In this document: positions 5,972 through 8,706 of the stretch, one piece after another
Position numbering within the stretch: position 1 is the first letter of the stretch
Layout: every line of letters starts with the position of its first letter
Virus record (IMG/VR): IMGVR_UViG_2541047735_000003
Coordinates: 1-40,965 of that record
Length of the DNA: 40,965 nt
Strand: one strand, 5' to 3'
From: a virus
Taxonomy: Duplodnaviria; Heunggongvirae; Uroviricota; Caudoviricetes
The notes under the pieces: model-generated
Seen by the model: the letters and a program-made list of their open reading frames with translations, nothing else
What the model was told of the DNA's origin: nothing
The model's database searches: none
Position numbers and translations under genes: made by a program

Positions 5972-6034
5972 TTACCCAACAGGTAAATGCACCCCATAGG
6001 TAACTATCCTTGATTTTTGTTACCTTATGGGTGA
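5972..6034. promoter_or_regulatory. Tripartite operator between repressor and cro-like genes
   Basis: Three sites in 63 bp: TTACCCAACAGGTAA (5972-5986), GCACCCCATAGGTAA (5989-6003), TTACCTTATGGGTGA (6020-6034). Confidence 0.65.
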
Positions 6035-6070
6035 ATATTTATTATCTGAAATAAATATCAGGCAATAGCT

Positions 6071-6301
6071 ATGAGCGATAACGGACATTTCGATTTCAAA
6101 AAGCACTGGCTTGCACTTACTCCGGATGAGCGTGAAGCCTTCGCACAGGAAGCCGGAACGACGAGTCACTATATCCAGACTCACTTAACAGGTAAGCGCA
6201 AAATGCCAGGTAAAGTATTGATGAATGGGCTTTTTAAAGCCTGTAAAACAAGACAATGGCTGCGCTCAAAAGCAGAACTGGCATACTTCTTCTACTCATG
6301 A
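6071..6301 (+). CDS. Cro-like small regulator
   Basis: 76-aa protein immediately rightward of the operators, divergent from the repressor, followed by an intrinsic terminator. Confidence 0.55.
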   Translation: MSDNGHFDFKKHWLALTPDEREAFAQEAGTTSHYIQTHLTGKRKMPGKVLMNGLFKACKTRQWLRSKAELAYFFYS

Positions 6302-6323
6302 TATCCAGCCACAACCCTCTGTA

Positions 6324-6345
6324 GACCGCCACCCGGCGGTCTTTT
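6324..6345 (+). terminator. Intrinsic terminator after cro-like gene (tR1-like)
   Basis: GACCGCC-ACCC-GGCGGTC followed by TTTT. Confidence 0.65.
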
Positions 6346-6356
6346 CATATCTATTC

Positions 6357-6371
6357 GCACCTCAAAGGTAA
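6357..6371. promoter_or_regulatory. Operator-like site GCACCTCAAAGGTAA
   Basis: Imperfect copy of the palindrome immediately after the cro terminator. Confidence 0.4.
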
Positions 6372-6451
6372 TAAAAAACCAAATCTGGTTGATCTTTTTT
6401 TTGTGTCAGCACAAAATGACCGTAATCCCAATACTAATAACAGGGCTTACC

Positions 6452-6652
6452 ATGGAAATCATTACACGTATTGATGCCGCAAAGCGCGGACTTAAACGCT
6501 ACTACACCGGAAAACCATGTAAGCACGGACATGACAGTGAACGTTGGGTTTACAACGGACACTGTGTTGAGTGCACCATGGAATCAAACCGTCGTATCAG
6601 GGCAGAGATTAAGCAGATCATGATTAATTCCTCCCCACAACATTCAAGCTGA
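6452..6652 (+). CDS. Hypothetical Cys/His-rich protein (cII position)
   Basis: 67 aa starting at MEIITRI (internal Met of ORF 6389..6652); CxH-HGH...CVEC pattern suggests metal binding; located between the cro terminator and the replication genes. Confidence 0.4.
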   Translation: MEIITRIDAAKRGLKRYYTGKPCKHGHDSERWVYNGHCVECTMESNRRIRAEIKQIMINSSPQHSS

Positions 6653-6667
6653 TAGCGGAGATTAATC

Positions 6668-7459
6668 ATGAGCAGACATGCAACAGATTGGGCCTGGGAG
6701 ACAGATCCAGGTAGCTCGTCATTAAAGCTCATACTGCTCTCGATGGCTGACAGAGCCGATGAATATAACCTATGCTACCCCAGCATAGAACGCCTCGTTA
6801 AAGACACTTGCCTGAATAAAAAAACCGTGCAGGCCGGGCTTATATCGCTCATGAAAATGGGGCTTATTTCAGATACCGGAGAGAGAAAGGGAGCGACAAA
6901 AAGAGTGCGGGTTTTCTCTCTTAATATAACCAAAAACGGGAACATTAAAGGCAACCGGGAGGGGGGCAATGAACCCGAAAACGGTAATGTTACCGAAAGC
7001 GGGAATATACCCAAAAACGGGATGTTGAATGATCCCAAAAACGGGATCCAGAACCAGTCATATAACCAGTCATTTAACCAAGAGAGGGAGAGCAGGACAA
7101 AAACCGGGAATTCTGTGCCTCATGACCCCGGCGCAAACAACGCCGTGATGAATAACTTTGTTCCTCCTGGTGGGCCAGGGCAATTAGGCAAATTTGTCAT
7201 GCATGAACAATGGCAACCATCAGATGACTTTCTTCGGAAAAGCTCATTGCAGGGAATCTACCTGGACAGTCTGCCAACGGCACAGGAACTTGCAGAGTTC
7301 AGAATTTACTGGATGGCTGAGGGTAAGGCATACCATCAGGCACAGTGGGAGCAGAAGCTGGCAAGGCGGCTGCAGATTAGCAGACAGAAGCAACCAACAT
7401 TACCTGATAACAACGTTCCGCACTGGAACAGCCCTGAAGCGTGGGAGGATTTCTTGTGA
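6668..7459 (+). CDS. Replication initiator (lambda O-like)
   Basis: 263-aa protein; N-terminal DWAW...LKLILLSMADRADE...CYPSIERL HTH typical of phage replication initiators; contains four iteron-like direct repeats inside the coding sequence. Confidence 0.65.
   Translation: MSRHATDWAWETDPGSSSLKLILLSMADRADEYNLCYPSIERLVKDTCLNKKTVQAGLISLMKMGLISDTGERKGATKRVRVFSLNITKNGNIKGNREGGNEPENGNVTESGNIPKNGMLNDPKNGIQNQSYNQSFNQERESRTKTGNSVPHDPGANNAVMNNFVPPGGPGQLGKFVMHEQWQPSDDFLRKSSLQGIYLDSLPTAQELAEFRIYWMAEGKAYHQAQWEQKLARRLQISRQKQPTLPDNNVPHWNSPEAWEDFL
6929..7048 (+). repeat. Iteron-like direct repeats inside the O-like gene (candidate origin)
   Basis: Four copies of CC(C/A)(A/G)AAAACGG(G/T)A at 6930, 6975, 7011 and 7035, followed by a tandem AACCAGTCAT(A/T)TAACC pair. 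Confidence 0.5.
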
Positions 7460-8241
7460 ACAACGTTTTTACCGCGATACAAAACCGTGACGGAGAAGCC
7501 CTTTCTCGCATGTCAGGTTATCAGCATCAATACGTCAACAATGACAATGTGGTGAACATGTCAGCAGAGAGGCTTGTTGATGCCCTTTTCAAACAGCTGA
7601 AACAACTGTTTCCGGCGGCAGTGGTAACCAACCTGAAGACGCCAGAGCAGGAAGTCGCTGCAAAACAGCAGTGGATTGCTGCGTTTGCCGAAGGTGGGAT
7701 CCGAACCCGTGAACAGGTTTCTGCTGGTATGCGCCACGCCCGCGCCAGTGAATCTCCGTTCTGGCCGTCGCCAGGGCAATTCATCAAGTGGTGCAAAGAC
7801 AGCAAGATGGTTCTTGGCGTCACCATTGACGATGTGATGGCGGAGTTTCACCGGTACAGCAAGGAAAAAAGTTTATATCCTGGTGGTCCCGAAAGATTCC
7901 CGTGGCGGCATCCGGTTATGTACTGGGTCGTATGTGATACCCGCCGTGCAATGTATCAGCGCCAGCTTAGCGAGATTGAGGTTGAGAAACACGCGCGCAG
8001 GCTGCTCGATGATTGGGCGAAAAAGGTGGCTTCCGGACAGCAGATACCCGATCCGGTGATCAGCATACAGGCAAAGCCAGAGCCCATGAGTACACCTCCG
8101 GACACAGGGAGAGACGTTTACCATCCACCAGGGCGAAGTTTCGGGTGCATGCCTAACGCCGCCACCCTTGGGGGAATAACACCGGCGCAGTGGCTGATGG
8201 AGGAATACAGGCGGGGAAAGGCGGCAGGATTTATCAAGTAA
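7456..8241 (+). CDS. Replication protein (lambda P-like helicase loader candidate)
   Basis: Follows the O-like gene with a short overlap; GTG at 7456 preceded by GGGAGGA; assignment rests mainly on position. Confidence 0.45.
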   Translation: MNNVFTAIQNRDGEALSRMSGYQHQYVNNDNVVNMSAERLVDALFKQLKQLFPAAVVTNLKTPEQEVAAKQQWIAAFAEGGIRTREQVSAGMRHARASESPFWPSPGQFIKWCKDSKMVLGVTIDDVMAEFHRYSKEKSLYPGGPERFPWRHPVMYWVVCDTRRAMYQRQLSEIEVEKHARRLLDDWAKKVASGQQIPDPVISIQAKPEPMSTPPDTGRDVYHPPGRSFGCMPNAATLGGITPAQWLMEEYRRGKAAGFIK

Positions 8242-8278
8242 TACCAGCGCGATAGCGCATTTTTTTACGCCTCAACAA

Positions 8279-8293
8279 TTACCTATAAGGTAA
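8279..8293. promoter_or_regulatory. Operator palindrome TTACCTATAAGGTAA
   Basis: Perfect site in the intergenic region after the P-like gene. Confidence 0.55.
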
Positions 8294-8340
8294 CAAAACA
8301 TTCTAAACTCTATTGATTTCGTGTCTTATGTGGTTTTTAA

Positions 8341-8355
8341 TTACCTTAGAGGTAA
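8341..8355. promoter_or_regulatory. Operator palindrome TTACCTTAGAGGTAA overlapping RBS
   Basis: Perfect site ending 3 nt before ATG 8359; its right half doubles as the Shine-Dalgarno region. Confidence 0.55.
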
Positions 8356-8358
8356 ATC

Positions 8359-8706
8359 ATGAGAAAACAGATACAGGCTCTTGGTCGACTCAAAACAGGC
8401 CAGATGAACAAAACAGAATCTGCGTATTGCCAGCACCTTGAGCAGCGTAAACGTGCAGGGGAAATCGCCTGGTATCGATTCGAGGGTATCAAGCTGCGGT
8501 TAGCTGACAACACGTTCTATACGCCCGATTTCGCTGTGATGCTCGCCACCGGAGAGATGGAACTGCACGAAGTGAAAGGGGGATTCTGGACCGACGACGC
8601 CAGGGTGAAAACCAAAGTAGCCGCAGATCAGTATCCGTTCCGAATCATCGGGGTAACGGTTAAACCAAAGAAAGCAGGTGGCGGCTGGAACATCGAAGAG
8701 TTCTGA
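8359..8706 (+). CDS. PD-(D/E)xK-type nuclease, possible Holliday-junction resolvase
   Basis: 115-aa protein with YTPDFAV...GEMELHEVKGG fitting a PD...ExK nuclease motif; nin-region position; an operator palindrome overlaps its RBS. Confidence 0.45.
   Translation: MRKQIQALGRLKTGQMNKTESAYCQHLEQRKRAGEIAWYRFEGIKLRLADNTFYTPDFAVMLATGEMELHEVKGGFWTDDARVKTKVAADQYPFRIIGVTVKPKKAGGGWNIEEF

What the first reader, a model, noticed from the sequence alone, without database searches (positions are those of the whole stretch)
6929..7080. Iteron cluster inside the O-like replication gene (candidate origin)
Four direct repeats of a 12-bp core CC(C/A)(A/G)AAAACGG(G/T)A lie within about 120 bp of coding sequence, encoding an Asn/Gly-rich linker, and are followed by two AACCAGTCAT(A/T)TAACC repeats. 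Lambda places its origin iterons inside the O gene in the same way. One iteron carries GGTAATGTTACC, an inverted arrangement of the operator half-sites.
Basis: partly seen in the sequence, partly recalled or inferred. Interest (0 to 1): 0.45.

Follow-up and report, generated by a model that had tools for sequence, protein, structure and literature searches.

The report
Replication origin inside phage initiator gene
A cluster of short repeats inside the replication-initiator gene of a phiV10-like E. coli prophage is very probably the phage's replication origin, laid out like phage lambda's origin but in a different initiator family; this is expected rather than surprising.

Summary
The repeats are real. 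Five copies of ACC/CCC-RAAAACGG-K-A lie at 6929-7046, three 12-mers at 7052-7087, and a purine-rich tract follows to about 7111. All sit in the disordered linker of gene 6668-7459, which has a winged-helix HTH_36 N-domain and a DnaT-like C-domain. A lambda-P-type loader gene follows.

The window is a phiV10-like (Uetakevirus) E. coli prophage. In 33 diverse homologous loci (Vibrio, Edwardsiella, Acinetobacter, Burkholderia, Desulfovibrio and others) the same dyad-symmetric motif sits directly after the N-domain. It is 207-fold enriched there. Twelve loci read it in more than one reading frame, its arms co-vary to keep the dyad, and the C-terminal domain does not matter. Selection is therefore on the DNA, not on the peptide.

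Lambda's annotated iterons (TCCCTCAAAACGAGGGA) resemble it and occupy the equivalent position in O. Copy number ranges from 4 to 9 among E. coli relatives.

The suggested link to operator half-sites is not. Origin activity itself is untested. I found no paper or annotation describing this array. Verdict: new member of a known kind, modest interest.

The parts
6668..7459 (+). Replication initiator gene (263 aa): HTH_36 winged-helix N-domain, disordered linker, DnaT-like C-domain
   Evidence: ORF. Pfam HTH_36 at aa 18-67 (E 1.8e-10) and DnaT at aa 176-243 (E 1.3e-15). PHROG 1032 'replication initiation protein', E 8e-102. 94-99% identical to the phiV10 and related genes annotated as primosomal / replication initiation protein.
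6668..6934 (+). Coding region of the winged-helix DNA-binding domain (aa 1-89), the presumed iteron reader
   Evidence: AlphaFold2 pLDDT 80-97 for aa 1-89, topology H-H-H-H-strand-strand. Foldseek finds only generic winged-helix DNA-binding proteins, including staphylococcal plasmid RepA, all with E above 1e-3.
6929..6941 (+). Iteron 1 (ACCAAAAACGGGA); starts at codon 88, directly after the wing
6974..6986 (+). Iteron 2 (CCCGAAAACGGTA)
6992..7004 (+). Iteron 3, degenerate (ACCGAAAGCGGGA). With iteron 2 it forms the GGTAATGTTACC junction at 6983-6994
   Evidence: D1-D3. In phiV10 this copy reads ACCGAAAACGGGA.
7010..7022 (+). Iteron 4 (CCCAAAAACGGGA)
7031..7048 (+). Iteron 5 with full dyad arms (GATCCC-AAAAAC-GGGATC); a GATC site at each end
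   Evidence: Dyad arms co-vary across the family.
7052..7087 (+). Three tandem 12-nt units (AACCAGTCATAT / AACCAGTCATTT / AACCAAGAGAGG). This is the local form of a family-wide GAAYC x3 element at a fixed offset after the last iteron. Candidate unwinding or ssDNA-contact element
   Evidence: D8. In the diverse loci the units sit at +6, +19 and +31 after the last iteron, and the motif occurs at 47.9 per kb there versus 5.0 per kb elsewhere. The 36-step duplex stability of 7050-7086 is -44.5 kcal/mol against a window mean of -51.1, sd 4.0.
7071..7111 (+). Purine-rich, strand-asymmetric tract (75% purine on the + strand). It includes an iteron-like remnant, ACAAAAACCGGGAAT, at 7097-7111
   Evidence: Top 0.34% of all 40-nt windows for purine content. 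Repeat D11. Lambda's unwinding region is likewise strand-asymmetric (PMC5043065).
7181..7438 (+). Coding region of the DnaT-like C-terminal domain (aa 172-257)
   Evidence: phmmer E 1e-20 to E. coli DnaT C-terminal domain structures 9zbt, 6aep, 4ou6 and 2ru8.
7441..8241 (+). Lambda-P-family helicase loader gene. This is the longest ORF; the phiV10 annotation corresponds to a GTG start at 7456, overlapping the initiator's stop codon
   Evidence: Pfam Phage_lambda_P E 1.5e-56. PHROG 109 'P-like helicase loader'. phiV10 annotation.

Best explanation
Positions 6929-7111 are the vegetative replication origin of this phiV10-like prophage. It is embedded in the disordered-linker coding region of the phage's own initiator gene.

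Proposed mechanism:
1. Dimers of the initiator's N-terminal winged-helix domain bind the five dyad-symmetric iterons (consensus ATCCC-AAAAAC-GGGAT, spaced 18-24 bp) and build an O-some-like nucleoprotein complex. This step is inferred.
2. The strain opens the neighbouring three 12-mers and the purine-rich tract (7052-7111). This step is inferred.
3. The DnaT-like C-terminal domain, whose E. coli homologue forms filaments on ssDNA, together with the lambda-P-like loader encoded next door, delivers host DnaB to the opened DNA. This step is inferred.
4. The array lies in the early rightward operon, so transcription passes through it, as at ori-lambda.

What is shown: the repeats, their dyad symmetry, their position, selection on them at the DNA level, their co-inheritance with the N-domain, and the domain identities. 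What is not shown: binding, opening, helicase loading and origin activity.
For: 1. The cluster is non-random: 4 hits against 0.36 expected, and 0 of 100 shuffles reach 4.
2. It starts at codon 88, immediately after the confidently folded winged helix (aa 1-89), and lies in a linker with pLDDT below 50.
3. In 33 diverse loci whose N-domain is 42-87% identical, the 10-mer CCRAWWHYGG occurs 113 times in the 9.2 kb just after the N-domain and 5 times in the other 84.6 kb. That is 207-fold enrichment, p = 2e-106. 28 of 33 loci have at least one copy and 24 of 33 have at least three.
4. Twelve loci read the motif in two or three reading frames. Examples: EBPR podovirus STKNGT / SQKRD / VPKTE, GF-2 TQKRD versus PKIG, PPompW TQKRE versus STENGY. 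In the usual frame the first codon is xCC and the fourth GGx, while the middle dipeptide varies (KN, EN, EI, KI, NI, KF and others).
5. Bases flanking the core co-vary to preserve the dyad. At offset 2, 58 of 106 are complementary against 36.6 in shuffles (0 of 2000 shuffles reach this). At offset 3, 50 against 28.8 (0 of 2000).
6. Four of the five loci without the strict motif were inspected and carry other dyad repeats at the same place: GTCGGAAAAATCCGAC, GTGCCAAAAGTGGCAC, GTCGGTAAATGCCGAC. Phage Min27 has GGGGCAGGAGCTGCCC x3.
7. The N-domain and iterons travel together while the C-domain changes. It is DnaT-like here and in PPompW. In GF-2 it is a lambda-O C-domain (62% identity to lambda O). 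Acinetobacter phages have other C-termini next to DnaB-type helicase genes.
8. Lambda's annotated iterons (ATCCCTCAAAACGAGGGA and its variants) lie at codons 117-145 of O, just after its DNA-binding domain, with spacing 20/24/23 bp. They are followed by GGGACAC and a purine-rich tract.
9. A lambda-P-family gene follows immediately.
10. Copy number varies from 4 to 9 among 79 E. coli relatives, always by whole 18- or 24-bp units. Lambda has 4 iterons and Stx phages 6 (PMC7466680).
11. The domesticated chromosomal version of this gene pair (DopC/DopE) is reported to lack iteron-like repeats (PMC5509034). This indicates the protein does not need them.
Against: No experiment or replication-profile data exist for this or any family member, so origin activity is inferred by analogy.

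Within this window all five copies share one reading frame. The frame-independence argument therefore rests on relatives.

The flanking region is only moderately easy to melt (GC about 0.42-0.52). The least stable stretch of the gene is at the left edge of the array (6913-6949), and an AT-rich intergenic stretch (about 6340-6440, GC 0.30) lies 550 bp upstream.

The initiator shows no significant sequence similarity to lambda O (BLASTP E 0.07; hhalign probability 2.6%).

No DnaA box is nearby. The GC-skew minimum at 5-7 kb coincides with the switch in transcription direction, so it is uninformative.
Confidence: 0.8

Rival explanations
1. The repeats are initiator-binding sites, but they act in control rather than initiation: autorepression of the operon, copy-number handcuffing or incompatibility. 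The true site of initiation is elsewhere, for example the AT-rich intergenic stretch at about 6340-6440.
For: Plasmid iterons commonly serve both initiation and negative control (PMC5043065). The region 6340-6440 has GC 0.30-0.35 and holds one motif-like dyad, CCAAATCTGG, at 6379. The DNA next to the array is not strongly AT-rich.
Against: The upstream intergenic region is not shared by distant relatives, yet the in-gene array, the GAAYC units and often an obvious A-rich run after them are shared. The single hit at 6379 is at chance level. Lambda, the closest experimentally studied layout, initiates at the in-gene array.
Confidence: 0.1
2. The repeats are only a slippage-prone peptide repeat (P-K/E-N-G) in a flexible Asn/Gly-rich linker. 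They are kept or tolerated for protein reasons and have no role as DNA.
For: All five copies in the window are in one frame and encode similar pentapeptides. Copy number changes by whole in-frame units. The linker is predicted to be disordered.
Against: The same DNA motif is read in three frames in relatives, and the encoded peptide changes while the DNA stays. The dyad symmetry and the co-variation of the arms have no meaning for a peptide. Differences between copies in the window fall at codon positions 1 and 2 (T/P, K/E, N/S) while third positions are kept. The 13+12-nt spacing of the GAAYC units is not a multiple of three. Domesticated DopC is reported to lack such repeats.
Confidence: 0.05
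3. The array, or its GGTAATGTTACC junction, is bound by the prophage repressor or by another regulator that recognises GGTAA/TTACC half-sites, tying replication to immunity.
For: TTACC-N5-GGTAA palindromes are strongly over-represented in the window: 12 exact copies, three of them (one exact, two near-matches) in the repressor/cro-side intergenic region. The junction contains both half-site words.
Against: The junction has the half-sites everted and 2 nt apart, not inverted and 5 nt apart. It is the only such arrangement in the window and is missing from 32 of 80 close relatives. GGTA/TACC arms are an ordinary iteron variant in Vibrio and Acinetobacter phages.
Confidence: 0.03

Closest known systems
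ori-lambda within gene O, with the O/P initiator-loader pair (Escherichia phage lambda)
   Same: The iteron array lies inside the initiator gene, directly after its DNA-binding domain. There are 4-6 repeats about 18 bp long with internal dyad symmetry, spaced about 18-24 bp. The arms and centre are similar (TCCC...AAAAC...GGGA). A purine-asymmetric tract follows on the 3' side. A P-family loader gene comes next, and the array lies in the early rightward operon (PMC5043065).
   Different: The initiator N-domain is Pfam HTH_36, not Phage_rep_O, and has no significant pairwise or profile similarity to lambda O. The iterons have shorter arms and a shorter half-site spacing (6 nt between TCCC and GGGA, against 9-10 in lambda). 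The C-domain is DnaT-like rather than the lambda-O C-domain. Three GAAYC 12-mers are inserted between the iterons and the purine tract. The tract is much less AT-rich than lambda's 40-bp region.
Stx-phage origins (P27, 933W) with six iterons (PMC7466680)
   Same: The number of in-gene iterons varies between related phages. Each extra iteron lengthens the initiator protein by a whole repeat unit.
   Different: Those are true lambda-O-family initiators with lambda-type iterons, and they have been studied biochemically. The array here has not been studied.
DopC/DopE, a domesticated HTH_36-DnaT_C protein plus lambda-P-like loader of Cellvibrionales and Oceanospirillales (PMC5509034)
   Same: Identical two-gene architecture: HTH_36 N-domain, DnaT C-terminal motif, and an adjacent PF06992 protein.
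   Different: DopC is chromosomal and vertically inherited, and it is reported to have no iteron-like sequences. The gene here is in a prophage and carries the array. It looks like the mobile ancestor type.
Iteron plasmid origins (RK2, F, P1, pPS10) and oriC 13-mers
   Same: An array of initiator-binding repeats sits next to a few tandem repeats of about 11-13 nt where the DNA opens (PMC5043065). The three 12-mers here occupy that position.
   Different: Plasmid Rep proteins are Rep_3 / two-winged-helix proteins encoded outside the origin. Those origins are intergenic and usually carry DnaA boxes. Here there are no DnaA boxes and no Rep_3 domain.
E. coli DnaT (replication-restart primosome)
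   Same: The C-terminal domain (aa 172-257) aligns with the DnaT C-terminal domain at E 1e-20. That domain forms filaments on ssDNA in the preprimosome (PMC13377028).
   Different: DnaT is recruited by PriA/PriB to abandoned forks and has no sequence-specific DNA-binding domain. Here the domain is fused to a winged-helix origin reader and paired with a P-type loader.

Membership tests
Lambda-type phage origin (iterons inside the initiator gene) | The repeat array lies within the initiator's own coding sequence, just after its DNA-binding domain | tested here: met
   The array starts at codon 88, and the winged helix ends at about aa 89. Lambda's iterons are at codons 117-145, after Phage_rep_O at aa 22-115.
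Lambda-type phage origin (iterons inside the initiator gene) | Four or more direct repeats of about 18 bp, each with internal dyad symmetry, spaced about two helical turns apart | tested here: met
   Five copies with spacing 45/18/18/24. Iteron 5 is GATCCC-N6-GGGATC. Dyad co-variation is seen across the family.
Lambda-type phage origin (iterons inside the initiator gene) | An adjacent A+T-rich, strand-asymmetric unwinding region | tested here: inconclusive
   The tract is 75% purine, in the top 0.34% of windows, and 7050-7086 is 1.6 sd less stable than average. But GC is only 0.42-0.52. Many relatives have a clear A-rich run at this position.
Lambda-type phage origin (iterons inside the initiator gene) | The initiator belongs to the lambda O family (Pfam Phage_rep_O) | tested here: not met
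   Pfam gives HTH_36 plus DnaT, with no Phage_rep_O hit. BLASTP to lambda O gives E 0.07. hhalign probability is 2.6%. PHROG 'O-like' profiles do hit aa 1-145, and PMC5509034 reports that HHpred finds an HTH_36 domain in lambda O. Distant homology is therefore possible but was not shown here.
Lambda-type phage origin (iterons inside the initiator gene) | A P-family helicase loader is encoded immediately downstream | tested here: met
   PF06992, E 1.5e-56.
Lambda-type phage origin (iterons inside the initiator gene) | The initiator binds the repeats and the fragment supports initiator-dependent replication | not testable with these tools
   This needs EMSA or footprinting and a conditional-replicon assay.
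DopC/DopE-type pair | HTH_36 N-domain, DnaT C-terminal domain, and an adjacent lambda-P-like gene | tested here: met
   definition from PMC5509034.
DopC/DopE-type pair | Chromosomal, vertically inherited, and lacking iteron-like repeats | tested here: not met
   The context is a prophage: 94-99% identical to phiV10 and other phages, and present in 424 of 5426 E. coli genomes. The iteron array is present.
Iteron-plasmid Rep/ori | A Rep_3-type two-winged-helix initiator and an intergenic origin with DnaA boxes | tested here: not met
   No Rep_3 hit. No DnaA box within 1.6 kb. The origin lies inside a gene.
Repressor operator of this prophage | TTACC-N5-GGTAA inverted repeat | tested here: not met
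   The junction reads GGTAA-N2-TTACC, which is everted.

The most novel reading that the evidence does not exclude
The three GAAYC-containing units of about 12 nt are a distinct, sequence-specific origin element, not merely easily melted DNA. They begin exactly 6 nt after the last iteron in nearly every family member, whatever the iteron arm sequence, the C-terminal domain or the helicase/loader partner. They would act as a strand-capture or opening signal, comparable to DnaA-trios or the RK2 13-mers, and would be read by a conserved surface of the winged-helix initiator or by a host factor shared across Proteobacteria.
Probability: 0.3. Interest if true: 0.55.

Novelty: new member of a known kind. 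Interest (0 to 1): 0.35.

Why it matters
It gives phiV10-type (Uetakevirus) prophages, found in about 8% of complete E. coli genomes, a concrete and unannotated origin that can be tested.

It also shows that a broad family of HTH_36-type phage initiators across Proteobacteria carries co-evolving dyad iterons in the same in-gene position as lambda. That helps origin annotation and the design of phage-derived replicons.

It is a clean example of a DNA signal overprinted on a disordered protein linker. It does not change how phage replication is understood.

Tried and rejected
- A profile comparison of the family's N-domains with the lambda O N-terminus was not significant (hhalign probability 2.6%). 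BLASTP was not significant either. Homology to lambda O is therefore left open.
- The search for homologous proteins with the N-domain returned only close or truncated proteins, many ending inside the repeat array. It was of little use for diversity.
The first IMG/VR scan gave only near-identical E. coli loci. These served for copy-number statistics.
- Foldseek against the PDB gave only generic winged-helix matches, none with E below 1e-3.
- A DnaA-box search found nothing near the array.
- The cumulative GC-skew minimum at 5-7 kb coincides with the divergent-transcription switch, so it was rejected as evidence.
- The promoter and terminator scan was at background level.
- Literature searches for phiV10 or epsilon15 origins, for HTH_36 iterons, and for the literal repeat sequences found no description of this array.
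- The operator half-site idea was examined and rejected.

Full report
**What is there.** Reading 6000-8400 and listing ORFs places the finding inside a 263-codon gene, 6668-7459 on the + strand.
- The repeat finder gives five copies of a 13-nt core at 6929, 6974, 6992, 7010 and 7034, with start-to-start spacing 45, 18, 18, 24. It also gives two 12-nt units, AACCAGTCAT(A/T)T, at 7052 and 7064. A third partial unit follows at 7076.
None of 100 shuffles reaches 4.

**Context.**
- The gene product has a Pfam HTH_36 domain (aa 18-67) and a DnaT DNA-binding domain (aa 176-243). The next gene is a lambda-P-family helicase loader (PHROGs).
- The C-domain aligns with solved E. coli DnaT C-terminal-domain structures at E 1e-20.
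- The DNA is 94-99% identical to Escherichia phage phiV10 (Uetakevirus) and to several other E. coli phages. It occurs in 424 of 5426 complete E. coli genomes, nearly always chromosomal.
- No record inspected annotates an origin there, whereas the lambda record does annotate its iterons.
- AlphaFold2 models aa 1-89 as a confident winged helix and aa 90-184 as disordered. The repeats therefore begin at codon 88, right after the wing, in the linker-coding part.
- Foldseek finds only generic winged-helix DNA binders.

**The decisive comparison.** blastn already hinted at it: Vibrio and Edwardsiella phages match the query only across the repeat region. I collected homologues of the N-domain from annotated phages and from one genome per species, 33 diverse loci in all.
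- Hosts include Vibrio, Edwardsiella, Acinetobacter, Burkholderia, Providencia, Proteus, Pseudoalteromonas, Wohlfahrtiimonas, Marinobacterium and Desulfovibrio, plus an EBPR podovirus. N-domain identity to the query is 42-87%.
- The 10-mer CCRAWWHYGG, counted on either strand, occurs 113 times in the 9.2 kb that follows the N-domain and 5 times in the remaining 84.6 kb. That is 207-fold enrichment, p = 2e-106. 24 of 33 loci have at least three copies.
- Twelve loci read the motif in two or three reading frames. In the EBPR podovirus it encodes STKNGT, SQKRD and VPKTE; in GF-2, TQKRD versus PKIG.
- The bases outside the core co-vary so that each copy stays a dyad (ATCCC..GGGAT, GTCCC..GGGAC, GTACC..GGTAC, ACCCCC..GGGGGT). 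Complementarity at flank offsets 2 and 3 exceeds all 2000 shuffles.
- Four of the five loci that lack the strict motif were inspected. They carry other dyad repeats with an A-tract centre at the same place. A more distant HTH_36 'O' protein, from phage Min27, has three GC-rich dyads there.
- Selection is therefore on the DNA, in a form typical of sites bound by a dimeric protein, and the site sequence evolves together with the N-domain.

**Modularity.** The N-domain and its repeats stay together while the rest of the protein changes.
- PPompW shares the DnaT-like C-domain.
- Edwardsiella phage GF-2 instead has a lambda-O C-terminal domain, 62% identical to lambda O over 144 residues. Its next gene is annotated 'Replication protein P'.
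- The Acinetobacter phages have other C-termini followed by DnaB-type helicase genes.
- This is the classical division of labour: the N-terminus reads the origin and the C-terminus recruits the helicase machinery.

**Comparison with lambda, tested rather than recalled.**
- Lambda's annotated iterons (ATCCCTCAAAACGAGGGA, TCCCCTAAAACGAGGGA, ATCCCTCAAATTGGGGGA, ATCCCTCAAAACAGGGGGA) lie at codons 117-145 of O, just after its Phage_rep_O domain.
- Their spacing is 20/24/23 bp. They are followed by GGGACAC and a purine-rich A+T tract.
- The repeats here look like a shorter-spacer version: TCCC, an A-rich centre, then GGGA.
- The proteins show no significant similarity. I therefore file this as working like ori-lambda, not as a member of the lambda O family.
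- Brezellec et al. (PMC5509034) describe the same HTH_36-DnaT_C plus P-like pair as the domesticated DopC/DopE. They report that the domesticated gene has no iteron-like sequences. This fits repeats that serve an origin rather than the protein.

**Second element.**
- After the last iteron, nearly all loci continue with C(A/G)GAAYC and two further GAAYC units. The starts are at +6, +19 and +31, with typical spacing 13 and 12 nt and a range of 9-14 nt.
- The motif occurs at 47.9 per kb there against 5.0 per kb elsewhere.
- Because 13 is not a multiple of three, the same pentamer is read in different frames.
- The window's version is AACCAGTCATAT / AACCAGTCATTT / AACCAAGAGAGG (7052-7087). A tract with 75% purines on the + strand follows, in the top 0.34% of 40-nt windows.
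- Stability of 7050-7086 is 1.6 sd below the window mean. The weakest stretch of the gene is at the left edge of the array.
- By position this element corresponds to the unwinding region of ori-lambda and to the 13-mers of oriC and RK2 (PMC5043065). Whether it is read sequence-specifically is open, and this is the most novel reading that the evidence does not exclude.

**Population variation.** Among 79 close E. coli relatives the array has 4-9 copies. The commonest form has 6, with spacing 45, 18, 18, 24, 24. The window's 5-copy form occurs in 6 of the 79. All differences are whole 18- or 24-bp units. This parallels lambda (4 iterons) and Stx phages (6 iterons) (PMC7466680).

**The operator remark.**
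- TTACC-N5-GGTAA palindromes are strikingly frequent across the whole window: 12 exact copies, and 40 with up to two mismatches against 11.4 expected.
- GGTAATGTTACC is the place where the right arm of iteron 2 (CGGTA) abuts the left arm of iteron 3 (TACCG). Its half-sites are everted and 2 nt apart.
- It is absent from 32 of 80 close relatives.
- GGTA/TACC arms are an ordinary iteron variant in unrelated phages.
- I see no support for a link to immunity.

**Limits.**
- Nothing here shows binding, opening or origin firing.
- Within this window all copies share one frame.
- The flanking DNA is not strongly AT-rich.
- GC skew is confounded by transcription direction, and no DnaA box is near.
- Literature searches found no description of this array or of a phiV10 origin.

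**Verdict.** This is a well-supported candidate origin built on the lambda plan but belonging to a different initiator family: a new member of a known kind. Confidence is about 0.8 and interest is modest.

Noticed in passing
window, whole length (e.g. 5198, 5260, 5972, 8279, 8341, 10524, 13689, 30727, 31794, 33953, 34333): The palindrome TTACC-N5-GGTAA occurs 12 times exactly. With up to 2 mismatches it occurs 40 times, against 11.4 expected. The copies are spread over the whole prophage, not only the repressor/cro-side intergenic region. A pair sits in the gap after the P-like gene (8279, 8341). It could be a genome-wide operator or a promoter-associated site.
   Followed up: partly
window 6618-6671: A perfect 11-nt inverted repeat (TCATGATTAAT / ATTAATCATGA) plus CCUC/GGAG pairing forms an RNA hairpin of -17.2 kcal/mol (z = -3.35). 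The hairpin buries the Shine-Dalgarno sequence and the ATG of the initiator gene. Its left arm lies inside the upstream ORF, which suggests translational coupling. It is present in 79 of 80 close relatives, but these are too similar to one another to test covariation.
   Followed up: partly
window 7031-7034 and 7045-7048: Two GATC (Dam) sites bracket iteron 5. The GATCCC...GGGATC form recurs in phiV10 and GF-2 iterons. Methylation or SeqA could therefore modulate the origin.
   Followed up: no
window 7181-7438: The initiator's C-terminal domain is strikingly close to the host E. coli DnaT C-terminal domain (E 1e-20). This implies exchange between a phage initiator and the host restart primosome, in line with PMC5509034.
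   Followed up: partly
database proteins P0001-P0020 and P0014 (relatives): Many database homologues end at aa 97-143, inside the repeat array. Some read the iterons in another frame (for example TQKRVFE repeated in a Proteus protein). This suggests frequent frameshifts or assembly breaks in the array.
   Followed up: no
window 6377-6390: A single iteron-like dyad, AACCAAATCTGGTT, lies in the AT-rich intergenic region after the terminator at 6323-6342. Its count is at chance level, but it is positioned upstream of the replication genes.
   Followed up: no
L118 (phage Min27) 1590-1655: The Stx2 phage Min27 gene annotated 'O' is an HTH_36 protein, not a lambda-O-family protein. It carries three GGGGCAGGAGCTGCCC dyads at 21-24 bp spacing just after its N-domain, a likely origin of a different specificity.
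   Followed up: partly
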